From assembly GCA_964500125.1 (NCBI GenBank), contig CAZCMV010000004.1:7010-71009 (forward strand): a DNA stretch of 64,000 nt, written 5' to 3'. The position numbers were made by a program, and so were the translations under genes. Source of the stretch: an uncultured Bdellovibrionales bacterium (GTDB lineage Bacteria; Patescibacteriota; Minisyncoccia; Moranbacterales; GWC2-37-73). Numbering within the stretch: the stretch's first letter is position 1; each line of letters starts with the position of its first letter. Below the pieces are notes generated by a model. It made no database searches. It worked only from the letters and a program-made list of their open reading frames with translations, and had not been told where the DNA came from. This document shows, in pieces, positions 2,967 through 59,489 of the stretch.

Positions 2967-3030
2967 AAAATGCTCTTGTGTTCTTTACATCAATTCATAT
3001 ATTCGTATCAATTCGTATTTCGTAGGGATT

Positions 3031-4167
3031 TTATTTTTTCACTACCCTTGATCTACCTTTTGAAACCTGTGCAATGGTACGCGTGCGAGAAGAACGTTTT
3101 ACAGGTTCAAGTTCGACAGCATTTAGCTTTTCATTTTGTTGATCTGTTTTTCGTTGTTGTTTCCTCAGTAAAAACGATTTGATGATTGCCCTGATAATCC
3201 AGAAAATAATCAGGAAGAAAAGAATAAGTACAATTAAAACTGGAATCAAGCGCACTACAATCACAATCAGTGCACCAACTAATTTTTGCATATCTTTTAA
3301 CATGCTGGCAAACTCTGTCTTTGCCACTTGCCAAGGCCTCCATGATGTCGCAGTTCCTACAGTAACATCCTCGGAAATATTAGCCGTGATCGTTGACATT
3401 TCAACCTGCGAAGAAAGATATCTCATTTGTCCTTCCATAGCTTCAATTTCTCCTCGCACCCGCGAAATTTCTTGAGTCACCGCAAGAACATCACTAATCT
3501 TTCCACTAGTATTATTCAAAATTTCTTGGAATGATTCCTCTTCAGCTTTCTTGTTACGAAGACGAGCCTCTAAATCAACAAACTGGGCGGTCACATCATT
3601 CGCATTAATAGATTCGCTTTTCACCAAAGTAGCAATCTTTTTTATTTCTGCAAAAGCCACGTCGAAATTATTAAACGGGACTTTCACACTGATTGAACCA
3701 CTTTTCATGTTTTGTGCTCCTTTGCGGAAATTTGTCGATTGCACTTCTCCACCAAGTCTCTTTGCAATATCTGAAATTTCTTGCGCGGCAACATCGGCAT
3801 TTTCAACTTGCGCGGTCATGTATCCATTCTTGATTATCTTCTGCTCGACGGGTGCCACTTCTCCAACAACACTGTTTTGTATTGAAACAGGCACACTTTC
3901 CCTAGAGATTCCTTTTGCAGTATTGGACCTGGTCATATCCATACTTTCCCCTACCGAAGACATCGGAGTGATTTCCATTCCTGCATCAGAAAAAGAACCT
4001 TTCAACCCAAGAATTGTTGCATTTTTATTATAGGTCGCCACACGAAAACCAACTAGAAGTATGACCATCAGCACGATTGCAATGATTGCAATCACCCCAA
4101 TTTTGAGGATTTTTTTGGCAGTTTCCATTTTCTTTTTGTTATTTTTTATAAGAAATAGCTTACGCAT
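3031..4167 (-). CDS. Membrane-anchored extracytoplasmic coiled-coil protein (DUF4349-like architecture: N-terminal TM, about 250-aa domain, C-terminal TM helices)
   Basis: 378-aa ORF. N-terminal TM (IGVIAIIAIVLMVILLVGF). C-terminal hydrophobic stretch (LVGALIVIVVRLIPVLIVLILFFLIIFWII) followed by a basic tail. Confidence 0.45.
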   Translation of the reverse strand: MRKLFLIKNNKKKMETAKKILKIGVIAIIAIVLMVILLVGFRVATYNKNATILGLKGSFSDAGMEITPMSSVGESMDMTRSNTAKGISRESVPVSIQNSVVGEVAPVEQKIIKNGYMTAQVENADVAAQEISDIAKRLGGEVQSTNFRKGAQNMKSGSISVKVPFNNFDVAFAEIKKIATLVKSESINANDVTAQFVDLEARLRNKKAEEESFQEILNNTSGKISDVLAVTQEISRVRGEIEAMEGQMRYLSSQVEMSTITANISEDVTVGTATSWRPWQVAKTEFASMLKDMQKLVGALIVIVVRLIPVLIVLILFFLIIFWIIRAIIKSFLLRKQQRKTDQQNEKLNAVELEPVKRSSRTRTIAQVSKGRSRVVKK

Positions 4168-51583: not shown

Positions 51584-51766
51584 TCATAACAATAAGCCAA
51601 TCCCCTTGGCCAGTGGAATAATCATATCTTCCCAAACCAGCCATAAAATCCCGCGCCTGGGGTAACATTCGTCACCCTCGGCATTCCCTTGGTCAATGAT
51701 CTTCTGAAGGCCGTTGGCCTCCAGATTCCTCTGAGCTCTTTCAAGCTCAATAAATCCCATTATCAT
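51584..51766 (-). CDS. Small hypothetical protein (60 aa) in a GC-rich patch
   Basis: AAGGAG lies 7 nt upstream of the ATG. Terminator hairpin plus T-run downstream (51555-51583). Local GC about 48%. Confidence 0.4.
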   Translation of the reverse strand: MIMGFIELERAQRNLEANGLQKIIDQGNAEGDECYPRRGILWLVWEDMIIPLAKGIGLLL

Positions 51767-51797: not shown

Positions 51798-52016
51798 CTA
51801 TCTTTTTTTTGTCATTATTTCGCACAATTCGTGCAAGATAAACAAACAAGCTAAATAAACAAATAGACAAAAAACTACATCCTTTGCCCAAACATAAACT
51901 TGCCCGAGCCAGCCACAGAAATCTTCTGGATTAATCCAGTCATTTCTGCAACTGACAAATAAAGGATACAGAAAAAGAACTAAAACCATCATCTCCTTTT
52001 TTTGGGTTATTTTCAA
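51798..52016 (-). CDS. Small Cys-rich 2-TM membrane protein (72 aa), TTG start
   Basis: AAAAAGGAGGAAGG lies 8-9 nt upstream of TTG and overlaps the ileS stop, so it is likely co-transcribed with ileS. Confidence 0.4.
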   Translation of the reverse strand: MKITQKKEMMVLVLFLYPLFVSCRNDWINPEDFCGWLGQVYVWAKDVVFCLFVYLACLFILHELCEIMTKKR

Positions 52017-52040: not shown

Positions 52041-55000
52041 TTAAATCTTTTTTATACTTATTGAAATATTTTCTCCATCCACCAAAAACTCCTTTTTCAA
52101 ATCTGCGTCATCCATTTTTCCTTCATTTATGGCATCAGCCAACGTTTCTTTAGCAATCAAATCGCCAAATTTTCCAAACACTACCGATGATCCATTATAG
52201 CATATTTGAATGCGATTGTCAACCTCATAACCGGCAGCTTTGCGCATTTCCTGAATGAAGCGAACCACCTCCCGCGCCTGCCCTTCCAGCTTAAGATCCT
52301 TTGTTATTTCAATGTTAAGTGCAATCAAGGCATGTCTTTCATTGATAGAAAATTCTCTTTTATCGTCATTAAGCAAAAGATATTTCTTCCTTTCTAAATC
52401 TCCAACTAGAACAAGATCAAATTCTTCTTTGCTAGTAAATTTTCTAATAAATTTAACATTCAATTCTTCTTTAATAATATCATCAAATTGTTCATTCAAA
52501 TCAACTCTTGTCCATATCAACACCTCTTCCAGCGGTTGTCTCACTTTTATTTTTCCCTGAGCACGCGCAGCGAGACCTTGCGAAACTATATCACGAACTG
52601 TAGCCATATCAACATTTAATTCTGTATCTATCATGTCTTTATCAATTTCAGGAAAATCTGAAAGATGCACAGATTCCTCTCCTGTGAGATTTTTATATAT
52701 ATCCTCCGCCACAAACGGCGTGAAAGGTGCCATCAGCTTAGACAGTGTAACCAGCACGCAATGCAGCGTCACGTATGCCTCATTCTTGTCTGCGTCATTC
52801 TCGCTCTTCCAGAACCTTTTGCGCGATCGGCGAATATACCAATTGGAAAGATTGTCGATATATTTTTCAATCAATTTAGCCGCTGCATATATATCATAAT
52901 TTCCCAGCTTATCATCCACTTCTTTTATAAGCACATTTAATTCCGACAATATCCATTTATCAAGCAAACTTATCACTTTTAACTTTTCACTTTTAACTTG
53001 AAAATTATCAATATTCGCATACATCACAAAAAACGAGTATGAATTCCAAAGCATGCGGAACACGCGATTCATAATATCTTGCATGCCTTTGATATCAAAC
53101 TTCTTCGGCATACCCGGTTGATTTATTGTGAAAAGCATCCAGCGCAGCATATCGGCACCATATTGATCCATCACTTCCATCGGCTCAACCACATTGCCGC
53201 GTGATTTACTCATCTTCTTACCGTGCTTGTCCAAAATATGTGCCAAACAAATAACATTTTTATATGCATTACCTGTCGGCATTTTACCAGCCTTGTTGAG
53301 TAGCGTAGCGATTGCATGCAACGTATAGAACCAGCCGCGTGTTTGATCGATCGCTTCGGAAATATAATCAGCCGGAAACACTAATCCTTTTTCAATCTTC
53401 TCCTTGTCTTCGACGGTTGCATTACTTGGATACAAAAATTGCGCAAGCGGCATTGAACCGCTATCAAACCAAACATCCATCACTTCCGGCGTACGCGTCA
53501 TTTTCCCCCCACATTTTTCACACTTAAACTTAACGTCATCTACAAACGGCTTATGAACATCAAGAGATTCAGAAAACATTTTCTTCACACTTCCATTTGA
53601 AAGATAACCTTTTTCTTTAATCTCATTGTCTCGTAATCCTTCTAGCACGCCAGAAAATATGTGCAAGGGATCTCCATGCGAAACGATAACAATATTTTTG
53701 CCTGAATATTTTTCATTTATTTCTCCAAGAAAAGAACTTAATCTTTTTTTTATGTCAGAAACTGTTTCTGCGCCATATTCATTGCTTTCATTAAAATGAA
53801 CTTCCTTAATAATCCGCCAATTTTCCAATGCCTCACCATTAAATTTACCCATGCCTGTCTCCGTAAGTCTTTCATCAAAAACAATTTTCACTCCCGTATT
53901 TTTCGATATTATTTCTGCAGTCTCTTTTGTTCTTTGCAAAGGAGAAGCGAAAATCAAATCGATTCTTTCCTCACACAATTCACGCGCAACTTTTTCAATC
54001 TGAGCTTTTCCGATTTTGGTTAGCGAATATGCTTTTTTTTCAGGATAGCTGCTTATTATCTTCTGCACATTATTTTCTGATTCGCCATGGCGTACTAAAA
54101 ATAACTTATTGGGATTACCCAGCTGTTCCTTTATTTCCTCAATAGATTCAACAACTTTCAGCTCTCCACACGTGTCACATTCCCAAATAGGCAAAGGCGT
54201 GCCCCAATATCGTTCGCGCGAGATTGCCCAATCCTTAATTCCACGCAGCCATTCTCCAAAGCGCCCTTCTTTGATATATTCCGGCACCCAATTAATATTC
54301 TCGTTATTTTTCACCAATTCATCTGAAAACGCGCTCATGCGGATATACCATGAAGGTTTTGCATAGTAAATAAGCGGCGTGTCGCAGCGCCAGCAATGAG
54401 GATACTCGTGTTCATACACTTCTTCCTTGAAAAACAAATCTCTTTCTTTCAAATCAGTAACGATCAAATCATCCACGGAATAGCGATTTTTGTCATTTTT
54501 CTTTTTAACCTCGATGCCTTTCGTATTTGCTACATCAGCAATCATTTTTCCCTCTTCATCGACGGTGATGAGTGTAGGCAAATCATTTTCCTGAGCTACG
54601 TCGGCATCATCCGCGCCAAATGCCGGCGCAATATGCACAATTCCTGTGCCATCCTCAGTTGTCACAAAACCACCAGCGACGACATAGTGAGTTTTTCTGT
54701 CTACATCATTAGCAGTCTTATATAATGGCTCGTATTCAAGACCAACTAATTTACTCCCCTGGAAATAATCTATATTTTTAAACAATACATTCCCCGTGCC
54801 TTTGTAGTTGACACATGCCCATGAAAAATCATCTTCATGATTAGAAATTGCTCCAAAGCGTATTGGCTCACCAAAAATTTTTATATGCAAATTCGTATCA
54901 TTAGCCAAAATTATCTTATCTCCTTTTTTAAAATTAAACTCGCCAGAATCATTTGCTTCTATCTCCGCTTCAAAATATTGGTTTTTAGCATTAACTGCCA

Positions 55001-55790
55001 ATGCAACGTTTCCAGGCAATGTCCAGGGTGTGGTTGTCCAAGCCAATAAATATGTTCCTGCACTCTCATTCGAGTCATTCGAGTGACCATTTGAGATATT
55101 AGAGTCGCTCCTTACTTTAAATTTAACGTATATTGAGTTGTCCTTTACGGTCTGATACCCTTGCGCGACTTCGTGAGAAGCAAGGGCAGTTCCGCAGCGA
55201 TAGCAATATGGCACCACTTTGTGACCCTTATATAAAACATCTTCACCTTTTTCAGTTTTTAGCTTCGCAATCTGCGCCAAAACCCACCACACCGACTCAA
55301 TGTATTTGTTGTCATAGGTGATGTAAGGATTTTGCAAATCAACCCAATACCCCATGCGCGTGGTCATTTTCTCCCACAAGTCTTTATATTCCCAGACTGA
55401 TTCTTTGCATTTTTTGTTGAATTCAATTACGCTTTGACGCGAATCACCCGGTACGATATTCAAGATGTCATGCTTATGTTTTATTCCTAGAGTTTTTTCA
55501 ACTTGGATTTCTACAGGGAGTCCATGAGTATCCCAACCAGCTTTTCTTTCCACCAAAAATCCTTTCATCGTTTTATAACGAGGAATGATATCCTTGAAAG
55601 CACGCGCTAAAACATGGTGTAGCCCCGGCTTGCCGTTAGCCGTTGGCGGTCCTTCAAAAAACACAAACGGTTTATTGTCACGATTTTTTTCAATCGATTT
55701 TTCAAATATCTTATTTTCATTCCAAAACTTTAAAACCTCTTCCTCCATTTTTGGAAATGATTGCTTCTGATCTACTTTTTTGAATGACAT
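52041..55790 (-). CDS. ileS: Isoleucyl-tRNA synthetase (1249 aa) carrying an inserted histidine-phosphatase (PGAM-like) domain
   Basis: HIGH-type N-terminus (PPTANGKPGLHHVLARAFKD) and KMSKSRGN. Between WECDTCGEL and LDVHKPFVDDVKFKCEKCGG...WFDSGSMP lies about 200 aa with LFLVRHGESENN ... SPLQRTKETAEI ... IVIVSHGDPL (RHG/SHG histidine-phosphatase signature). Confidence 0.9.
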   Translation of the reverse strand: MSFKKVDQKQSFPKMEEEVLKFWNENKIFEKSIEKNRDNKPFVFFEGPPTANGKPGLHHVLARAFKDIIPRYKTMKGFLVERKAGWDTHGLPVEIQVEKTLGIKHKHDILNIVPGDSRQSVIEFNKKCKESVWEYKDLWEKMTTRMGYWVDLQNPYITYDNKYIESVWWVLAQIAKLKTEKGEDVLYKGHKVVPYCYRCGTALASHEVAQGYQTVKDNSIYVKFKVRSDSNISNGHSNDSNESAGTYLLAWTTTPWTLPGNVALAVNAKNQYFEAEIEANDSGEFNFKKGDKIILANDTNLHIKIFGEPIRFGAISNHEDDFSWACVNYKGTGNVLFKNIDYFQGSKLVGLEYEPLYKTANDVDRKTHYVVAGGFVTTEDGTGIVHIAPAFGADDADVAQENDLPTLITVDEEGKMIADVANTKGIEVKKKNDKNRYSVDDLIVTDLKERDLFFKEEVYEHEYPHCWRCDTPLIYYAKPSWYIRMSAFSDELVKNNENINWVPEYIKEGRFGEWLRGIKDWAISRERYWGTPLPIWECDTCGELKVVESIEEIKEQLGNPNKLFLVRHGESENNVQKIISSYPEKKAYSLTKIGKAQIEKVARELCEERIDLIFASPLQRTKETAEIISKNTGVKIVFDERLTETGMGKFNGEALENWRIIKEVHFNESNEYGAETVSDIKKRLSSFLGEINEKYSGKNIVIVSHGDPLHIFSGVLEGLRDNEIKEKGYLSNGSVKKMFSESLDVHKPFVDDVKFKCEKCGGKMTRTPEVMDVWFDSGSMPLAQFLYPSNATVEDKEKIEKGLVFPADYISEAIDQTRGWFYTLHAIATLLNKAGKMPTGNAYKNVICLAHILDKHGKKMSKSRGNVVEPMEVMDQYGADMLRWMLFTINQPGMPKKFDIKGMQDIMNRVFRMLWNSYSFFVMYANIDNFQVKSEKLKVISLLDKWILSELNVLIKEVDDKLGNYDIYAAAKLIEKYIDNLSNWYIRRSRKRFWKSENDADKNEAYVTLHCVLVTLSKLMAPFTPFVAEDIYKNLTGEESVHLSDFPEIDKDMIDTELNVDMATVRDIVSQGLAARAQGKIKVRQPLEEVLIWTRVDLNEQFDDIIKEELNVKFIRKFTSKEEFDLVLVGDLERKKYLLLNDDKREFSINERHALIALNIEITKDLKLEGQAREVVRFIQEMRKAAGYEVDNRIQICYNGSSVVFGKFGDLIAKETLADAINEGKMDDADLKKEFLVDGENISISIKKI

Positions 55791-55794
55791 AATT

Positions 55795-56110
55795 TATATG
55801 TAAATAATAAAAAAACATCCTTAAATCAACATAAGGACGTCAGTCCGCCTTTGCGCAAGCGCTCCGGCGTGATAAAACGTGGTACCACCTTACTTTAGTA
55901 TAATGTATCAAGTATCAAGTATATGTATTATGTATCCAAATACATTATACATTCTACATCATACATCATACCCTTAATTGCCGCTATTACGGGCTTACCC
56001 GACACGTTCTACTGTGACTTGCCGTAGTCCTAACGAATGCGGCTTGTCTTTTCTTCGCGCAGCTCCGGAGTGATAACTCCCTCATCGCTTTTTCCAATGC
56101 TAATAATATA
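55795..56110 (-). promoter_or_regulatory. T-box riboswitch leader upstream of ileS
   Basis: Minus strand contains AAGGTGGTACCACG (plus-strand 55878-55891), matching the T-box consensus AGGGTGGNACCGCG. It is followed by a terminator hairpin and U-run, and preceded by structured stem-I-like sequence containing an AUC. Confidence 0.6.
55808..55836 (-). terminator. Intrinsic terminator at the 3' end of the ileS T-box leader
   Basis: Minus strand reads ACGTCCTTA-TGTTGATT-TAAGGATGT followed by TTTTTTTATTATTT, just upstream of the ileS ATG. Confidence 0.65.
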
Positions 56111-56121
56111 TCACACAGCTC

Positions 56122-56622
56122 CTAAAAATCAAGCTTATCGACGGAATGCATTCCCTTATTAGCATTATAATATTCCCACCCTTTTCGTATATCAATATCT
56201 ATACCTTGGATAAAATCAATTCCACCCAGTGAATTTATCAACTGCCATTTCCATTCCGAAAATTCTTCTTCACTGATTACTGGACTTTTTCCGTTAACAT
56301 ACTCGTTAAAAAAACATACAAACTTAATACCCGGAATGATTTTTTGTTCAAGCTCGGGCGTCTTAATACAATAAGTGTCGAAAACCAAAACTTTCTCAAC
56401 GATAATTCCTAATTCTTCTTTTATCTGACGTTTGACCGCGTCCACAAAACTCTCACCTGCATAAACCTGGCCGCCGCCACATTCCCATTTGCCAGGATAC
56501 AACGCACGATCTTCCCTTCTTTTTGCAATCAATACTTCAATATCGTTTTCCGTCTCACGAAAACAAATTCCTGCCACATGAACTTCGATCAAATGCCGTT
56601 TTTTCTCGCGCATAGCTTTCAA
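56122..56622 (-). CDS. NUDIX-family hydrolase
   Basis: GGGQVYAGESFVDAVKRQIKEELGI fits the Nudix box. Confidence 0.65.
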   Translation of the reverse strand: MKAMREKKRHLIEVHVAGICFRETENDIEVLIAKRREDRALYPGKWECGGGQVYAGESFVDAVKRQIKEELGIIVEKVLVFDTYCIKTPELEQKIIPGIKFVCFFNEYVNGKSPVISEEEFSEWKWQLINSLGGIDFIQGIDIDIRKGWEYYNANKGMHSVDKLDF

Positions 56623-56636
56623 TGAAAATGTTTATT

Positions 56637-57794
56637 TTATTTTTCATATATGGCCAAGGTTTCTCTTGCTGTCTTTTCCCAATCAAATTCCTTCGCTCTT
56701 TCAATGCCCTTTTGTTTCAATGAATCCTTCAGCTGTTCGTCGCTTGCGAATTTTTCCAGCGCACTTGCCATTTCATCTGTGTTTGTCGGGCTAGTAAAAA
56801 ATACCGCACCATCACCGATTTCTTCCAGAGTCGGAATCTTAGAGAGAATAGCCGGCGTTCCGGTTGCAAAAGCTTCCAACACAGTCATACCAAATCCTTC
56901 ATAAAGTGAAGGCATCACAAAGAATTCCGATCCTTGAAACAATGGCACGAGTTCATCACCAACAATATATCCAGTAAAAATAATGTCTTTATCTAAACCA
57001 AGTTCTTTAATTTGATGCTGTAATTGCTGCGCGAGCCATCCTCGCTTGCCAGCCAATACAAGCTGATATTCAAAAACTCCTTCGCTTTTCGCCTTTTGGT
57101 TCTGTTTAAATTTAGCGAATGCCTGAATCAAACGTCCGATATTTTTTGAAGGTTCCAGTGTTCCCAAGAATAGAATATATTTTTTGTTAATACCGAAACG
57201 ATAAAGCATTTTCTTGCTGTCCACACCGAACTGTCCAAAAAAGCGTTTATCTATTCCTCCATAAACCACCTCAATTTTATCATTTTCAGCCTCCAGATAT
57301 TTTTCGAGATCTTTTTTAAGAGCCTGAGAAACAGCTATTATCTTGTCCGCTTTTTTTGACATCAAGCGTGAGGTTACTTTCGATTTGGTCCTTTTTACTG
57401 ATGGATAACATTCAGGAACGGAAAACATTCCCATATCATGGAAGGTCACGATAGTCTTGCCTTTGTAACTTTGTGGGATGCGGCTCATCGGCGACGTTGT
57501 GTGTAAAACATCCAATTTTTCTTTTTGCAAAGTAGCCGCACCCAAAATTTCACTATACACACCCGGAAGATATTTTTTGTAATCGGAATAGGGATAAAAT
57601 TTTATTTTTACGTTCGGCTGGGTAAACTTTTTCACATCTTTCTCTCGCACACGAAAATCAAAGAAAATAACATATTCATTTTTCGTGTCCACCTTAAGCA
57701 AATGACGAATCAGCTGGTAGGTATAGTGCCCTACACCTATCGCATCTCCTTTCTCGGGATTCAATATTGTTCGTGCATCTATTCCTATACGCAT
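56637..57794 (-). CDS. GT4-family glycosyltransferase
   Basis: C-terminus FVMPSLYEGFGMTVLEAFATGTPAI (E-x7-E motif). Confidence 0.8.
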   Translation of the reverse strand: MRIGIDARTILNPEKGDAIGVGHYTYQLIRHLLKVDTKNEYVIFFDFRVREKDVKKFTQPNVKIKFYPYSDYKKYLPGVYSEILGAATLQKEKLDVLHTTSPMSRIPQSYKGKTIVTFHDMGMFSVPECYPSVKRTKSKVTSRLMSKKADKIIAVSQALKKDLEKYLEAENDKIEVVYGGIDKRFFGQFGVDSKKMLYRFGINKKYILFLGTLEPSKNIGRLIQAFAKFKQNQKAKSEGVFEYQLVLAGKRGWLAQQLQHQIKELGLDKDIIFTGYIVGDELVPLFQGSEFFVMPSLYEGFGMTVLEAFATGTPAILSKIPTLEEIGDGAVFFTSPTNTDEMASALEKFASDEQLKDSLKQKGIERAKEFDWEKTARETLAIYEK

Positions 57795-57875: not shown

Positions 57876-59489
57876 TTACATCTTATTTGGCGCATCTACT
57901 CCGATTAACCTCAACGTTTCAGCTAAAACGATTTTTGTGGCTTTAACTAGGTATAATCTAGCCTTGGTTAATTCCAGATTTTCTTCATCAATAACCCTGC
58001 ATGAATCATAGAATGAATGGAATTTATCAGCCAGTTTTATCGCGTAATGTGGCAATTTATGAACTTCATAACTATTGGAAACTTCTTCTATCAACTCAGG
58101 AAATTTTTCAAGTTCCCTCATGAGACTTAATTCCTTTTCATGAACCAGTAAAGAAAGGGAATCCGACTCTCCTTGAGTTGGAAGTTGTACTCCCAAATCT
58201 TGAGCCTTCTGCAAGATACTACAAATTCTCGCATGAGCGTATTGCACATAAAACACTGGGTTTTTCTGCGACCTTTCTTTTGCCAATCCCAAATCAAAAT
58301 TCATGTGCGTGTCGGGTGAGTACATCAAGAAAAAAAATCTTGTCACATCATGCCCAATTTCATCAATAAGGTCATCAATATATACTACATTTCCAGCACG
58401 CTTACTCATTCGCACTTCTTTGCCATCTTTCATGAGTCGTACCATTTGCACTATTTCGAAGTGGATTTTTTTATCATCAAAACCCAACGCTTTAGCTGAA
58501 GCTTTGAAACGCTGTATATATCCATGATGATCTGCACCCCAAGCCTCAACTAACTTATCAAAGCCTCGCTCTATTTTATATAATATATATCCGCAGTCTG
58601 AAGCGAAATATGTTTTTTGCCCACCAGACTTTATCAATACACGATCCTTGTCATCTCCAAAATCAGTAGTTTTAAGCCAAACCGCCCCATCCTGCTCGAA
58701 AGTAAGCTTCTTATCTTCTAAAATTTTAATTGCTTTATCTACATAGCCATCTTCATAAAGCATTTTTTCCGAAACCCACTCATCAAACTTAATTTGCATC
58801 TTTTCCGAGATTGTCTTTTCGACAATGTTTTCCATGATGTATGCAGCAGCCTTTTCCCCGACTTCCCTAATGTTTCCAATATCCCCAAACATCTTATTAA
58901 GTTCATCGATATATTTACCTTTATACGCCGCTTCTTCATCTTTCAAAACACTGTGCCCAAGCTTAATTACTTGCTCTCCTGCATTATTTACATAATATTC
59001 GTTTACCACCTCAAACCCCGCTTTTCTCAACATGCGCGTAAGCGAATCACCAAAAAATCCTCCCCGACCATTACCAAGATGAAGTGGCCCTGTAGGATTA
59101 GCAGAAATAAATTCATTATTCACTTTTATTCCTTTGCCAATCTCTAAATTACCAAAAGCATTTTCTTTTTCATTTATTTCGGCAACCTTATTTTGATAAT
59201 ACTTTTTCGACAAATAGAAATTAACATACCCCGGCGTTGCTATTTCAACTTTTTCAAAGTTGAAAGATTTGAGATTTGAGATTTGAGATTTGAGATTTTC
59301 CGCAATTTCCATCGGATTCTTTTTCACCAACCTCGCCAAAACCATCGCAATATTGCTTGTGTAGTCCCCAAATCGCTCATCTTTCGGCCTGTCCACAACT
59401 ATTCCAGGCAACTCAAATTCATCCCAAGATTGGCTTTCTTTGGCTTCCAAAATGGCTTGTTTAAGGTATTTTTCTATTTCTCTTTTCAT
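57876..59489 (-). CDS. argS: Arginyl-tRNA synthetase
   Basis: ANPTGPLHLGNGR (HIGH region). C-terminal anticodon-binding domain ending ...GVDAPNKM. Insertion KSQISNLKSFNF encoded by (CAAATCT)x3 at 59266-59292. Confidence 0.9.
   Translation of the reverse strand: MKREIEKYLKQAILEAKESQSWDEFELPGIVVDRPKDERFGDYTSNIAMVLARLVKKNPMEIAENLKSQISNLKSFNFEKVEIATPGYVNFYLSKKYYQNKVAEINEKENAFGNLEIGKGIKVNNEFISANPTGPLHLGNGRGGFFGDSLTRMLRKAGFEVVNEYYVNNAGEQVIKLGHSVLKDEEAAYKGKYIDELNKMFGDIGNIREVGEKAAAYIMENIVEKTISEKMQIKFDEWVSEKMLYEDGYVDKAIKILEDKKLTFEQDGAVWLKTTDFGDDKDRVLIKSGGQKTYFASDCGYILYKIERGFDKLVEAWGADHHGYIQRFKASAKALGFDDKKIHFEIVQMVRLMKDGKEVRMSKRAGNVVYIDDLIDEIGHDVTRFFFLMYSPDTHMNFDLGLAKERSQKNPVFYVQYAHARICSILQKAQDLGVQLPTQGESDSLSLLVHEKELSLMRELEKFPELIEEVSNSYEVHKLPHYAIKLADKFHSFYDSCRVIDEENLELTKARLYLVKATKIVLAETLRLIGVDAPNKM

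What the first reader, a model, noticed from the sequence alone, without database searches (positions are those of the whole stretch)
52041..55790. IleRS with an in-frame ~200-aa histidine-phosphatase (PGAM-like) domain inserted in the catalytic core
The 1249-aa IleRS ORF is continuous. Between the conserved PIWECDTCGEL block and the LDVHKPFVDDVKFKCEKCGG...WFDSGSMP block (about nt 53500-54110) lies a module with LFLVRHGESENN, SPLQRTKETAEI and IVIVSHGDPLH. This is the RHG catalytic-His motif plus the second SHG His of the branch-1 histidine-phosphatase superfamily (dPGM/SixA/CobC). It is not intein-like: there are no Cys/Ser-His-Asn splice junctions. A phosphatase fused inside an aminoacyl-tRNA synthetase is not a described IleRS architecture as far as I know. 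It could act on Ile-AMP, Ap4A or tRNA 3'-phosphate, or on some other small phosphate ester; this is speculation.
Basis: partly seen in the sequence, partly recalled or inferred. Interest (0 to 1): 0.75.

Follow-up and report, generated by a model that had tools for sequence, protein, structure and literature searches.

The report
Phosphatase domain nested inside isoleucyl-tRNA synthetase
An essential protein-synthesis enzyme (isoleucyl-tRNA synthetase) of a tiny candidate-phyla bacterium carries a complete, apparently active phosphatase enzyme spliced into one of its surface loops; this fusion turns out to be widespread in these bacteria and was noted once in 2013, but its purpose has never been tested.

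Summary
ORF 52041-55790 (-) encodes a 1249-aa type-2 IleRS with all synthetase and editing motifs. About 187 residues (556-742) form a His_Phos_1 domain (Pfam E=7e-34) nested between the two Cys pairs of a zinc knuckle. It folds autonomously (pLDDT 92) and resembles short phosphatases (PspA, PhoE, CobC), not true mutases. It is neither an artefact nor unique: at least 140 protein clusters (50% identity) across Patescibacteria share the fusion. The same domain also occurs at two or more other IleRS sites and in up to four copies. The catalytic Arg-His...Arg...Glu...His set is essentially invariant in 165 copies. Kantor et al. 2013 mentioned such an IleRS in SR1 in one sentence. New here: the closest free-standing homologues sit in an argS-phosphatase-ileS cluster, and nested and free forms never co-occur (0 of 80 loci). 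The nested allele is patchy on the IleRS tree, and one close pair shows a recombination-like tract. A probable Ile T-box precedes ileS; in relatives it also controls small nucleotide hydrolases (HIT, NUDIX, HD, NYN). Function is inferred only: a plug-in phosphomonoesterase coupled to IleRS expression, perhaps protecting isoleucylation. The substrate is unknown.

The parts
52041..55790 (-). ileS: 1249-aa type-2 isoleucyl-tRNA synthetase with a nested phosphatase domain
   Evidence: ORF. NCBIfam TIGR00392 ileS scores 920 bits against a cut-off of 621. Pfam architecture. The closest solved structures are PmIleRS2 8C8U/V/W and T. thermophilus 1ILE.
54126..55790 (-). IleRS N-terminal part (aa 1-555): first half of the Rossmann fold, CP1/editing domain, CP2 and the first Cys pair
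   Evidence: Pfam tRNA-synt_1 covers 19-559. The editing motifs WTTTPWTLPGN and GTGIVHIAPAFG are invariant.
55614..55625 (-). Class-I signature motif in the swapped form G56-L-H-H59 (GXHH)
   Evidence: Read directly from the sequence. Invariant in 45 relatives. GXHH in IleRS2 confers mupirocin hyper-resistance (Brkic et al. 2023, PMC10485003).
54168..54179 (-). First Cys pair of the zinc knuckle (C538-x2-C541)
   Evidence: Invariant C538 and C541. Aligns with the CxxC of PmIleRS2 just before its residue 477.
53565..54125 (-). Nested histidine-phosphatase cassette (aa ~556-742; Pfam His_Phos_1 aa 563-735 = nt 53586-54104)
   Evidence: Pfam E=6.9e-34. Boundaries come from alignment with insert-less relatives. 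The AF2 model of the insert alone has pLDDT 91.7 and pTM 0.88. Within the 1-1140 model the domain has pLDDT 85-96, with linkers at ~65. Foldseek finds PspA, Rv2419c, PhoE and CobC at TM ~0.76.
54084..54092 (-). R567-H568-G569: catalytic RHG motif with the nucleophilic His
   Evidence: Invariant in 19 close carriers. R and H are each present in 162 of 162 ungapped domain copies.
53931..53933 (-). R620: second phosphate-binding Arg
   Evidence: Present in 162 of 163 copies.
53859..53861 (-). E644: general acid/base
   Evidence: E in 150 and D in 8 of 163 copies.
53676..53678 (-). H705: second catalytic His (the SHG motif)
   Evidence: Present in 161 of 161 copies.
53511..53522 (-). Second Cys pair of the zinc knuckle (C757-x2-C760)
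   Evidence: Invariant C757 and C760.
52041..53564 (-). IleRS C-terminal part (aa 743-1249): WFDSGSMP, KMSKS (nt 53202-53216), anticodon-binding domain and the DUF5915 C-terminal domain
55861..56094 (-). Probable Ile-specific T-box leader of ileS
   Evidence: Rfam RF00230 gives a full-length match at 29.2 bits, E=7e-5, below the gathering score. The sequence shows a short Stem I hairpin GGAG-UUAUCA-CUCC with AUC followed by A in the loop, the GGUGGUACCACG box, and a hairpin plus U-run before the ATG. Equivalent leaders in L018 and L043 score 56 and 50 bits.
56122..56622 (-). Free-standing NUDIX gene in the variable slot upstream of ileS (outside the T-box unit here)
   Evidence: Pfam NUDIX E=4.9e-14. 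It is 69% identical to the NUDIX at the same position in L006. A NUDIX domain is nested in IleRS of P0357.
57876..59489 (-). argS, the upstream anchor of the conserved argS...ileS-recO cluster; no free-standing phosphatase follows it here
   Evidence: Pfam. Synteny. The phosphatase HMM finds only the nested copy in the 64-kb window.

Best explanation
SHOWN. The gene encodes a complete type-2 IleRS (GXHH variant). A whole, autonomously folding, short-form histidine phosphatase (PhoE/PspA/CobC-like) is plugged into the loop of the zinc knuckle just before the second half of the Rossmann fold. It is one member of a large Patescibacteria family of IleRS enzymes carrying this domain. Most carry it at this site (A). 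Some carry it just after WFDSG (site B) or ~70-80 residues after KMSKS (site C), and some have up to four copies. The catalytic residues are conserved in virtually every copy. The nested domain is the alternative state of a gene that otherwise lies free-standing in the argS-phosphatase-(variable slot)-ileS-recO cluster; the two states were never seen together. The nested allele is scattered across the IleRS tree. In the one closely related pair available it behaves like a cassette exchanged by homologous recombination. No IleRS core position away from the junction co-varies with it, and nested and free forms have the same conserved active-site residues. INFERRED. The domain works as an independent phosphomonoesterase on the same substrate as its free-standing orthologue. 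Nesting gives 1:1 co-production and co-localisation with IleRS and puts the domain under the Ile T-box, so it is induced when tRNA-Ile is uncharged. It appears to belong to an interchangeable set of small, mostly nucleotide-directed enzymes that are either nested in CPR IleRS (NUDIX, GNAT, P-loop kinase) or co-transcribed with ileS behind the T-box (HIT, NUDIX, SpoT-like HD, NYN). The most likely shared task is to keep isoleucylation going. For the phosphatase, that would mean removing a blocking or toxic phosphate from a nucleotide-type substrate, such as a 2'/3'-phosphorylated tRNA 3' end or a phosphorylated nucleotide or inhibitor. Confidence in identity, distribution and evolutionary relationship is about 0.9. 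Confidence in the proposed role is about 0.3. The substrate is unknown.
For: Identity: Pfam, NCBIfam and PDB matches; AF2 models; Foldseek neighbours. Active site: 13 invariant residues in 19 close carriers, although the insert averages 44% identity against 71.5% for the core; the catalytic residues are conserved in 165 copies. Family size and sites: 181 representatives at E<=1e-30, about 140 of the top 150 with site-A architecture, plus sites B and C and multi-copy forms. Link to the free-standing gene, over 80 species-representative loci: 53 are free-standing, of which 50 have argS directly upstream (median gap 228 bp) and 41 have ileS visible downstream; 31 of 31 such ileS genes with a complete junction lack the insert; 27 loci are nested; none has both. 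L090 has argS-HP-ileS with 4-bp gaps, and L003 has argS-HP-HIT-ileS. Patchiness and cassette: carriers are interspersed on the core tree, with insert-less sisters at 90-100% bootstrap. The P0127/P0162 pair is 94% identical in the protein core; at the DNA level, mismatches are 27.5% within 60 nt of the indel against 6.7% elsewhere (p=1e-11), including synonymous changes. Plug-in behaviour: only junction columns 551, 553 and 554 associate with carriage after Bonferroni correction, and no position is differentially conserved between nested and free forms. Coupling to tRNA-Ile sensing: T-box upstream of ileS; T-box-X-ileS units with HIT, NUDIX, HD_4, NYN, Fic-like and IVP genes. Nested copies carry about 6 more positive charges than free ones. 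tRNA 3'-end pyrophosphorylation by toxins is a documented way to block aminoacylation (Kurata et al. 2021, bioRxiv 10.1101/2021.04.30.441581, listed).
Against: There is no biochemical evidence and no way here to measure the distance or orientation between H568 and the synthetic site, the editing site or A76. The free-standing orthologue is never behind the T-box (0 of 53), and it works in trans, so fusion is not required. A more distant free-standing homologue (P0088) is unlinked to ileS. Some close non-carriers (L001, L006) have no phosphatase anywhere in the locus. The closest characterised relatives are metabolic phosphatases (phosphoserine, glucosyl-3-phosphoglycerate, riboflavin pathway, alpha-ribazole) and none is known to act on RNA ends. 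The variable slot also holds unrelated genes (NrdD/G, sigma factor, hemerythrin). CPR IleRS tolerates even a transposase-like insert (P0250), which fits mere permissiveness. Multiple copies per protein are not needed for a stoichiometric catalytic role. The recombination signature was significant in only one of three pairs. The T-box hits are below Rfam's gathering score.
Confidence: 0.4

Rival explanations
1. Hitch-hiking housekeeping enzyme. The phosphatase has a function unrelated to IleRS (for example a metabolic phosphoserine, sugar-phosphate or cofactor phosphatase). It was captured from the neighbouring gene into a permissive surface loop. It persists because the cell needs the phosphatase and the fusion is neutral or merely convenient for co-expression.
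For: Free-standing orthologues exist and are mutually exclusive with the nested form, so the enzyme works in trans. The active-site residues are identical in both forms. No core residues co-adapt to the insert. The nearest characterised relatives are metabolic phosphatases. The gene lies next to ileS, which makes local capture mechanistically easy. CPR IleRS also tolerates GNAT, kinase, NUDIX and even Y1-transposase inserts.
Against: The same domain family has entered IleRS at three or more different sites and in up to four copies. ArgRS, which is even closer to the free gene, shows no insert in the loci examined. Nested copies show a systematic charge shift. The other genes nested in or co-transcribed with ileS are strongly biased towards nucleotide-directed hydrolases under tRNA-Ile control.
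Confidence: 0.3
2. Resistance module against an IleRS-directed natural product. The phosphatase, like the GNAT, HIT, NUDIX and kinase partners, inactivates a phosphorylated or nucleotide-like inhibitor of IleRS. This is a specific sub-case of the best explanation.
For: The enzyme already carries the GXHH motif linked to mupirocin hyper-resistance. GNAT domains are nested in related IleRS, and NCBIfam has a model 'ileS_w_GNAT'. HIT genes sit behind the Ile T-box. From memory, not tested here: GNAT and HIT enzymes are known resistance factors against aminoacyl-nucleotide antibiotics. T-box induction by uncharged tRNA-Ile is a natural sensor of IleRS inhibition.
Against: To my knowledge no known IleRS inhibitor bears a phosphomonoester. 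Histidine phosphatases need a terminal phosphate and would not cleave adenylate-type diesters or phosphoramidates. No biosynthetic or transporter context was seen.
Confidence: 0.1
3. Non-catalytic structural or regulatory insert. The domain serves as a spacer, a tRNA-binding surface or an interaction platform and no longer acts as an enzyme.
For: It sits in a zinc-knuckle loop that tolerates variation. Some distant carriers have lost the zinc cysteines. Nested copies are more basic.
Against: All five catalytic residues are essentially invariant across 165 copies that are otherwise 30-50% identical. That pattern is not expected for a non-enzymatic scaffold.
Confidence: 0.05
4. Selfish or mobile insertion (intein-like or homing element) or a true glycolytic phosphoglycerate mutase fused by chance.
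For: Patchy distribution on the host-gene tree and a cassette-like recombination tract. Superfamily-level similarity to dPGM.
Against: No Hint, intein or endonuclease domain was found and there are no splice-junction residues. Inserts are more diverged than their hosts, which is not what recent homing would give. The domain scores far below the dPGM cut-offs (111.9 against 225), and its structural neighbours are ~200-aa phosphatases lacking the mutase tail.
Confidence: 0.04
5. Artefact: assembly chimera, frameshift or mis-called ORF.
For: None found. The insert has somewhat lower G+C (0.34-0.38) than the adjacent core (0.42-0.43).
Against: The identical protein is on two independent contigs. 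There are 19 full-length close homologues and at least 140 diverged clusters with the same junctions. The reading frame is continuous. Other parts of the gene reach similarly low G+C.
Confidence: 0.01

Closest known systems
[quoted passage not shown] 2013, mBio, PMC3812714)
   Same: A candidate-phyla IleRS interrupted in frame by PGM-superfamily (His_Phos_1) domains. The same phenomenon appears in representatives such as P0357 (NUDIX plus His_Phos_1) and P0286 (two His_Phos_1).
   Different: That report is a one-sentence observation in another phylum, with three inserts and no analysis. The window's enzyme is Moranbacteria-type with a single insert at site A, and its NUDIX is a separate upstream gene. 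The evolutionary and regulatory context (argS-HP-ileS cluster, mutual exclusivity, T-box) was not described there.
Short-form branch-1 histidine phosphatases: H. thermophilus PspA (4IJ5/4IJ6), G. stearothermophilus PhoE (1H2E), Rv2419c GpgP (4PZ9), CobC (6E4B, 6NRU), riboflavin-pathway HFP (9MMH)
   Same: Same fold and catalytic residues, ~190-210 aa, no mutase tail. Foldseek TM 0.73-0.79 and 21-28% identity. phmmer E=1e-14 to 1e-5.
   Different: All of these are free-standing enzymes with small-molecule substrates. None is nested in another enzyme. The insert reaches no NCBIfam equivalog cut-off, so no substrate can be transferred to it.
NCBIfam NF040702 'isoleucine--tRNA ligase, N-acetyltransferase domain-containing' (ileS_w_GNAT)
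   Same: A curated example showing that IleRS with an extra enzymatic domain is a recognised class. GNAT domains are nested in relatives that also carry the phosphatase (P0344, P0375, P0250).
   Different: The window protein has no GNAT and scores 305 bits against a cut-off of 1999.
GXHH-motif IleRS2 (Brkic et al. 2023, PMC10485003; PmIleRS2 structures 8C8U/V/W)
   Same: The host enzyme is the same type: IleRS2 with DUF5915-type C-terminal domains and the swapped G-x-H-H signature motif. Best PDB match is 808 bits.
   Different: The characterised IleRS2 enzymes have only a ~5-residue linker where the window enzyme has the 187-residue phosphatase.
Bifunctional RNase H / acid phosphatase (NCBIfam PRK07238, Rv2228c type)
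   Same: A nucleic-acid enzyme fused to a CobC-like His_Phos_1 domain. It is the second-best NCBIfam hit of the insert at 91 bits.
   Different: That is an end-to-end fusion, not a nested one. The score is far below the 326 cut-off, and the partner enzyme is different.
Inteins
   Same: An in-frame insertion in a conserved region of an essential gene, with patchy phylogenetic distribution.
   Different: No Hint or splicing motifs and no homing endonuclease. The insert is a conserved enzyme and is presumably retained in the mature protein.
tRNA 3'-end blocking and healing systems (toxSAS pyrophosphorylation of the CCA end, reversed by small alarmone hydrolases)
   Same: Functional analogy only. 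These systems involve phosphate groups on the tRNA 3' end that prevent aminoacylation (papers listed). A SpoT-like HD_4 gene lies behind the Ile T-box next to ileS in L043 and L055.
   Different: There is no evidence that the nested phosphatase acts on tRNA. No histidine phosphatase is known to do so (one search found no such report).

Membership tests
Histidine phosphatase superfamily, branch 1 (Pfam PF00300) | Profile match above the curated threshold | tested here: met
   117.6 bits against a cut-off of 21.7, E=6.9e-34, residues 563-735, profile positions 1-176 of 194.
Histidine phosphatase superfamily, branch 1 (Pfam PF00300) | Catalytic core: RHG nucleophile motif, second Arg, Glu acid/base, second His | tested here: met
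   R567-H568-G569, R620, E644 and H705 are present. They are invariant in 19 close carriers and essentially invariant in 165 copies.
Histidine phosphatase superfamily, branch 1 (Pfam PF00300) | Alpha/beta/alpha fold of the superfamily | tested here: met
   AF2 model with pLDDT 91.7. Foldseek probability 1.00 and TM 0.76-0.79 to 4IJ6, 6S2Q, 4PZA and 1H2E. This is a prediction, not a solved structure.
Histidine phosphatase superfamily, branch 1 (Pfam PF00300) | Phosphoryl-transfer activity through a phospho-histidine intermediate | not testable with these tools
   Requires an enzyme assay of the wild type and the H568A mutant.
Cofactor-dependent phosphoglycerate mutase (dPGM / 'PGAM' proper) | Equivalog-level profile score | tested here: not met
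   The best model, dPGM_arch NF038349, scores 111.9 bits against a cut-off of 225. GpmB scores 69.9 against 261. TIGR01258 scores 33 against 81.7.
Cofactor-dependent phosphoglycerate mutase (dPGM / 'PGAM' proper) | Longer (~230-250 aa) form with the C-terminal tail that caps the active site | tested here: not met
   The domain is ~187 aa. The top structural matches are 200-215-aa phosphatases, and true mutases align with worse rmsd (3.2-6.6 A) and lower target coverage.
Isoleucyl-tRNA synthetase, type 2 (IleRS2) | IleRS equivalog profile above cut-off | tested here: met
   TIGR00392 scores 920.2 bits against a cut-off of 621.4.
Isoleucyl-tRNA synthetase, type 2 (IleRS2) | Class-I signature motifs and editing-domain motifs intact | tested here: met
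   GLHH (the GXHH variant of HXGH) at 56-59, KMSKS at 859-863, WTTTPWT and GTGxVHxAP all present and invariant among relatives.
Isoleucyl-tRNA synthetase, type 2 (IleRS2) | Type-2 C-terminal organisation, without the IleRS1 zinc-binding domain | tested here: met
   DUF5915 covers 1145-1248. The best PDB matches are IleRS2 enzymes.
Isoleucyl-tRNA synthetase, type 2 (IleRS2) | Isoleucylation activity retained despite the insert | not testable with these tools
   Inferred from intact motifs, from this being the only ileS seen at the conserved locus, and from the T-box leader. Needs an aminoacylation assay.
CPR IleRS with nested PGM-superfamily domain(s) (the architecture noted by Kantor et al. 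2013) | tRNA-synt_1 interrupted in frame by His_Phos_1 | tested here: met
   The same junctions occur in 19 close and at least 140 distant representatives.
Intein | Hint/splicing domain, with Cys/Ser/Thr at the N-junction and His-Asn followed by Cys/Ser/Thr at the C-junction | tested here: not met
   No intein, Hint or LAGLIDADG family was found in the Pfam scan. The junctions read ...EQLGNPNKLF... and ...KKMFSESLDVHKP....
Mupirocin-resistance IleRS MupA / MupB; ileS_w_GNAT | NCBIfam 'exception' model score | tested here: not met
   MupA 804 and MupB 805 against a cut-off of 1900. ileS_w_GNAT 305 against 1999.
T-box leader (Rfam RF00230), for the element upstream of ileS | Covariance-model score at the gathering threshold | tested here: not met
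   29.2 bits against 93, although the match is full-length with E=7e-5.
T-box leader (Rfam RF00230), for the element upstream of ileS | Conserved T-box sequence, a specifier codon matching the downstream aaRS, and a terminator/antiterminator | tested here: met
   GGUGGUACCACG box, AUC followed by A in the Stem-I loop, and a hairpin plus U-run ending ~40 nt before the ATG. Homologous leaders score 50-56 bits. The antiterminator pairing was not analysed.

The most novel reading that the evidence does not exclude
Candidate-phyla bacteria use IleRS and its T-box-controlled transcription unit as a platform for a fast-changing set of plug-in enzymes (histidine phosphatase, NUDIX, HIT, SpoT-like HD, NYN, GNAT, P-loop kinase). 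Together these would form an inducible defence or repair system for isoleucylation. Uncharged tRNA-Ile is the alarm signal, and the enzymes remove phosphate-, pyrophosphate-, nucleotidyl- or acyl-type blocks placed on tRNA-Ile, or neutralise nucleotide-like inhibitors of IleRS, produced by competitors, hosts or phages. In this reading the nested phosphatase is a tRNA 3'-end (2'/3'-phosphate) healing enzyme, which would be a new activity for the histidine-phosphatase superfamily and a new kind of aaRS accessory function.
Probability: 0.15. Interest if true: 0.85.

Novelty: new member of a known kind. Interest (0 to 1): 0.58.

Why it matters
Aminoacyl-tRNA synthetases are among the best-studied enzymes, and new catalytic domains inside their cores are rare. 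Here an intact second enzyme sits inside the catalytic domain of an essential synthetase. It occurs in at least 140 diverged lineages of an enormous, uncultivated bacterial radiation, yet the dedicated IleRS papers examined here do not mention it. The context adds testable hypotheses: mutual exclusivity with a free-standing gene in an argS-ileS cluster, exchange as a cassette, and a tRNA-Ile-sensing leader that in relatives also drives HIT, NUDIX, HD and NYN genes. These turn a curiosity into a specific question: is this a system that protects or repairs the isoleucylation step? If so, it would reveal a new layer of translation quality control or conflict biology in organisms with minimal genomes, and a new substrate class for histidine phosphatases. 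If not, it is still a clean natural example of domain nesting and of presence/absence polymorphism maintained by recombination in an essential gene.

Tried and rejected
(1) Searching with the insert alone returned only ~190-aa free-standing proteins and not even the known IleRS carriers. It therefore could not show whether this phosphatase clade is nested in other host proteins, and that question stays open. (2) I tested whether the free-standing phosphatase lies behind the Ile T-box, which would have tied it directly to the ileS operon. It does not, in 0 of 53 loci. (3) The recombination-tract test was repeated on two more diverged carrier/non-carrier pairs (P0124/P0157 and WIN/P0125) and was not significant. 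DNA for P0136 was not on record. (4) Insert tree against core tree: only a weak correlation (Mantel r=0.30, p=0.04) with some clear incongruence. I could not separate ancient polymorphism with recombination from repeated loss. The uniform 7-8-residue linker in all non-carriers argues against many independent deletions. (5) The structure tools return no coordinates, so the distance and orientation of the phosphatase pocket relative to the synthetic and editing sites could not be measured. Two IleRS structure papers gave only nomenclature (CP core, CP1-CP3) and no location for this knuckle relative to the tRNA. (6) NCBIfam gave no equivalog, so no substrate could be transferred. (7) Literature searches for 'isoleucyl-tRNA synthetase' plus 'histidine phosphatase', and for histidine phosphatases acting on tRNA or cyclic phosphate, found nothing relevant. 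(8) Considered and rejected: intein, pseudogene or chimera, and glycolytic mutase (see the rival explanations).

Full report
OBSERVATION. The window contains one uninterrupted ORF on the minus strand, 52041..55790, encoding 1249 aa. Pfam finds tRNA-synt_1 (E=2e-108) interrupted by His_Phos_1 (PF00300, E=6.9e-34, residues 563-735), followed by Anticodon_1 and DUF5915. NCBIfam identifies the host as IleRS (TIGR00392, 920 bits against a cut-off of 621). The closest solved structures are the type-2 IleRS of Priestia megaterium (8C8U/V/W) and T. thermophilus 1ILE. Alignment with insert-less relatives shows that about 187 residues (~556-742, nt 53565-54125) replace a uniform 7-8-residue linker ('LSGQKLE'). 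This linker lies between the two Cys pairs C538xxC541 and C757xxC760, about 15 residues before WFDSGSMP. In PmIleRS2 the corresponding linker spans residues ~477-483. The exact protein occurs on two independent contigs.

WHAT THE INSERT IS. The domain has the full catalytic set of branch-1 histidine phosphatases: R567-H568-G569, R620, E644 and H705. Modelled alone it folds with pLDDT 91.7 and pTM 0.88. Inside a model of residues 1-1140 (pLDDT 80.5, pTM 0.71) it keeps pLDDT 85-96 and is joined by two lower-confidence linkers. It is therefore an autonomous domain. By sequence and by fold its nearest characterised relatives are ~200-residue phosphatases: PspA phosphoserine phosphatase, Rv2419c, PhoE, CobC and a riboflavin-pathway phosphatase. 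It falls far below every NCBIfam mutase or equivalog cut-off (best is dPGM_arch, 112 against 225). 'Histidine phosphatase' is justified. 'Phosphoglycerate mutase' is not. There are no intein features.

IT IS A LARGE FAMILY AND WAS NOTICED BEFORE. A word-indexed search found many partial Patescibacteria IleRS fragments with PF00133+PF00300 and 18 full-length Moranbacteria-type homologues with the insert. An exhaustive search of 1.84 billion representatives gave 181 hits at E<=1e-30, and about 140 of the top 150 match both flanks and the insert in one stretch. Mapping host and insert segments on these 150 proteins revealed further insertion sites. Site B lies just after WFDSGSMP (WIN ~785-804). 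Site C lies ~70-80 residues after KMSKS (WIN ~930-943). There are also tandem copies at site A and one protein with four copies (P0312, Pfam-confirmed). Across 165 domain copies the catalytic residues are essentially invariant: Arg 162/162, His 162/162, Arg 162/163, Glu or Asp 158/163, His 161/161. In the 19 close carriers the insert averages only 44% pairwise identity against 71.5% for the core. This is strong purifying selection on catalysis. Other enzyme domains are nested in related IleRS: GNAT, NUDIX, an AAA_33/Zeta-like P-loop kinase and even an IS200-type Y1 transposase domain. In the literature, Kantor et al. [quoted passage not shown] No other paper in the library mentions the fusion, and two recent specialist studies of IleRS evolution do not. 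NCBIfam does recognise an 'ileS_w_GNAT' class.

ORIGIN AND DYNAMICS. The closest free-standing homologues (43-50% identical to the insert) are ~190-aa Moranbacteria proteins. Their genes lie in the same conserved neighbourhood as the window's ileS: argS - phosphatase - variable slot - ileS - recO. I examined 80 species-representative loci:
- 53 have a free-standing phosphatase. In 50 of these, argS is directly upstream (median gap 228 bp). In 41, ileS is visible downstream on the same strand.
- All 31 ileS genes in that group with a complete junction lack the insert.
- 27 loci have the nested form.
- No locus has both.
In L090 the three genes are separated by only 4 bp. The window fits the pattern: it has the nested copy, no gene between argS and the glycosyltransferase, and no second phosphatase in 64 kb. 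Some non-carriers have neither form in the locus (L001, L006). A more distant homologue is unlinked to ileS (L091).

On a core-only IleRS tree (928 columns, 100 bootstraps) the 19 carriers are scattered. Most have insert-less sisters at 90-100% support, down to 94% core identity for P0127 against P0162. Insert and core distances correlate only weakly (Mantel r=0.30), and there are clear incongruences. In the P0127/P0162 DNA pair, mismatches reach 27.5% within 60 nt of the indel against 6.7% elsewhere (p=1e-11), and these include synonymous changes. The divergent tract ends at the two Cys pairs. This suggests the inter-knuckle loop, with or without the domain, is exchanged as a cassette by homologous recombination. 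Two more diverged pairs gave no significant signal, so this step is supported but not established.

Only junction columns (551, 553, 554) associate with carriage after multiple-test correction. No position is differentially conserved between nested and free-standing phosphatases. The domain therefore behaves as a plug-in that needs no adaptation of the host and probably keeps the same substrate. Nested copies are, however, about six charges more positive than free ones (p=0.008 within Moranbacteria).

REGULATORY AND FUNCTIONAL CONTEXT. Between the upstream NUDIX gene (56122-56622) and ileS there is a probable T-box leader (55861-56094). The Rfam match is full-length but sub-threshold (29 bits, E=7e-5). 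The sequence shows a very short Stem I hairpin with the Ile codon AUC followed by A in its loop, the GGUGGUACCACG box and a terminator-like hairpin with a U-run. The nested phosphatase is thus produced under tRNA-Ile-sensing control.

In related loci the T-box core is never upstream of the free-standing phosphatase (0 of 53). In about 15 loci it precedes a small gene that directly precedes ileS. The covariance model confirms leaders in L018, L043 and L036 at 56, 50 and 30 bits. The intervening genes are HIT, NUDIX, SpoT-like HD_4, NYN, a weak Fic-like match, 23S-rRNA-IVP four-helix proteins and unknowns. In L005 the intervening gene is a weak nucleoside-deoxyribosyltransferase-like match. The slot as a whole also contains unrelated genes such as NrdD/G, a sigma factor and hemerythrin. 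The recurring theme, both nested in IleRS and behind its T-box, is small enzymes that act on nucleotides or nucleotide-type adducts.

MECHANISM (INFERENCE). I commit to the following. The domain is an independent phosphomonoesterase tethered in the zinc-knuckle loop. It acts on the same substrate as its free-standing orthologue. Nesting provides obligatory co-production with IleRS and induction when tRNA-Ile is uncharged. Together with the NUDIX, HIT, HD, NYN, GNAT and kinase partners it most likely serves to keep isoleucylation running, by removing a blocking or toxic phosphate from a nucleotide-type substrate. Candidates are a 2'/3'-phosphorylated tRNA 3' end, or a phosphorylated nucleotide or inhibitor. 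tRNA 3'-end pyrophosphorylation by toxins is a documented way to block charging (papers).

I put about 0.3 on this role. I put about the same on the main rival: that this is a housekeeping phosphatase captured from the neighbouring gene into a permissive loop, with no mechanistic link to IleRS. The points against my reading:
- The enzyme works in trans.
- Its characterised relatives are metabolic phosphatases.
- No geometry is available.
- Multi-copy forms are unexplained.
- CPR IleRS tolerates even a transposase-like insert.
The points against the rival:
- The same domain has entered IleRS repeatedly at several sites, while ArgRS, which is even closer to the free gene, shows no insert in the loci examined.
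- Nested copies show a charge shift.
- The companions nested in or co-transcribed with ileS are strongly biased towards nucleotide-directed enzymes.

COMPARISON AND NOVELTY. The host is a standard IleRS2 of the GXHH type (G56-L-H-H59, invariant in 45 relatives). That motif confers mupirocin hyper-resistance in characterised IleRS2. The insert is a standard short histidine phosphatase. The combination was noted in 2013 and is abundant in databases, where it is often named only 'class I tRNA ligase family protein'. The window's gene is therefore a new member of a known, though uncharacterised, kind. What appears not to have been described is the family-level picture: several insertion sites and copy numbers, mutual exclusivity with a gene of the argS-ileS cluster, cassette-like exchange, and T-box-controlled accessory hydrolases.

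VERDICT. Interest is moderate to high (0.58): the architecture is surprising to a synthetase specialist and readily testable, but it is not unprecedented and its role is unproven.

Noticed in passing
window 55861-56094 (- strand): Probable Ile-specific T-box leader upstream of ileS. It has an unusually short Stem I (hairpin GGAG-UUAUCA-CUCC with AUC followed by A in the loop), the GGUGGUACCACG box and a terminator-like hairpin plus U-run. Rfam scores it only 29 bits (gathering score 93). Related Moranbacteria loci score 50-56 bits.
   Followed up: partly
window 55614-55625 (- strand; IleRS aa 56-59): The class-I HIGH signature reads G-L-H-H. This GXHH swap was shown by Brkic et al. 2023 to give IleRS2 mupirocin hyper-resistance. 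It is invariant in all 45 aligned Moranbacteria-type IleRS.
   Followed up: partly
window 56122-56622 (- strand): NUDIX-family gene directly upstream of the ileS leader. Its Nudix box has RQ instead of RE (GGQVYAGESFVDAVKRQIKEELGI). It is 69% identical to the gene at the same position in L006. NUDIX domains are also nested inside some CPR IleRS (P0357).
   Followed up: partly
related loci L012, L018, L025, L031, L036, L039, L043, L045, L055, L056 (between the T-box and ileS): The Ile T-box often controls a two-gene unit, T-box - X - ileS. X varies among HIT, NUDIX, SpoT-like HD_4, NYN, a weak Fic-like match, 23S-rRNA-IVP four-helix proteins and unknowns. This slot changes rapidly between close relatives.
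   Followed up: partly
proteins P0344, P0375, P0250, P0357, P0356, P0312 (representatives): Other domains nested in Patescibacteria IleRS: GNAT acetyltransferases (two in P0344), NUDIX, an AAA_33/Zeta-toxin-like P-loop kinase, an IS200-type Y1 transposase domain inside the editing region (P0250), and four His_Phos_1 copies in P0312.
   Followed up: partly
L005 vs L006, ileS 3' end (about alignment columns 3000-3550 of the gene): A second block of strongly elevated divergence (12-39 mismatches per 100 nt against 0-9 elsewhere) lies in the C-terminal domain region of an otherwise ~95% identical ileS pair. This suggests ileS is a recombination mosaic in these organisms.
   Followed up: no
window 51584-51766 and 51798-52016 (- strand); L001 7303-7518 and 7537-7719: Two small ORFs (about 60 and 71-72 aa) occupy the same position between ileS and recO in the window and in its closest relative. 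They have no Pfam hit on record and may be conserved small proteins.
   Followed up: no
L018 3985-4039 (+); L018 1657-2058, L043 3786-4189, L056 3581-3985 (-): A type III hammerhead ribozyme candidate (39.8 bits, below the gathering score of 48.5) was seen in one Moranbacteria locus. tmRNA genes lie a few kb upstream of argS in three loci.
   Followed up: no
window 56637-57794 (- strand): The glycosyltransferase between argS and NUDIX also matches Pfam 'GT4-conflict' (family 4 glycosyltransferase in conflict systems, 46.7 bits). It is conserved at this position in several relatives (L001, L005, L006).
   Followed up: no
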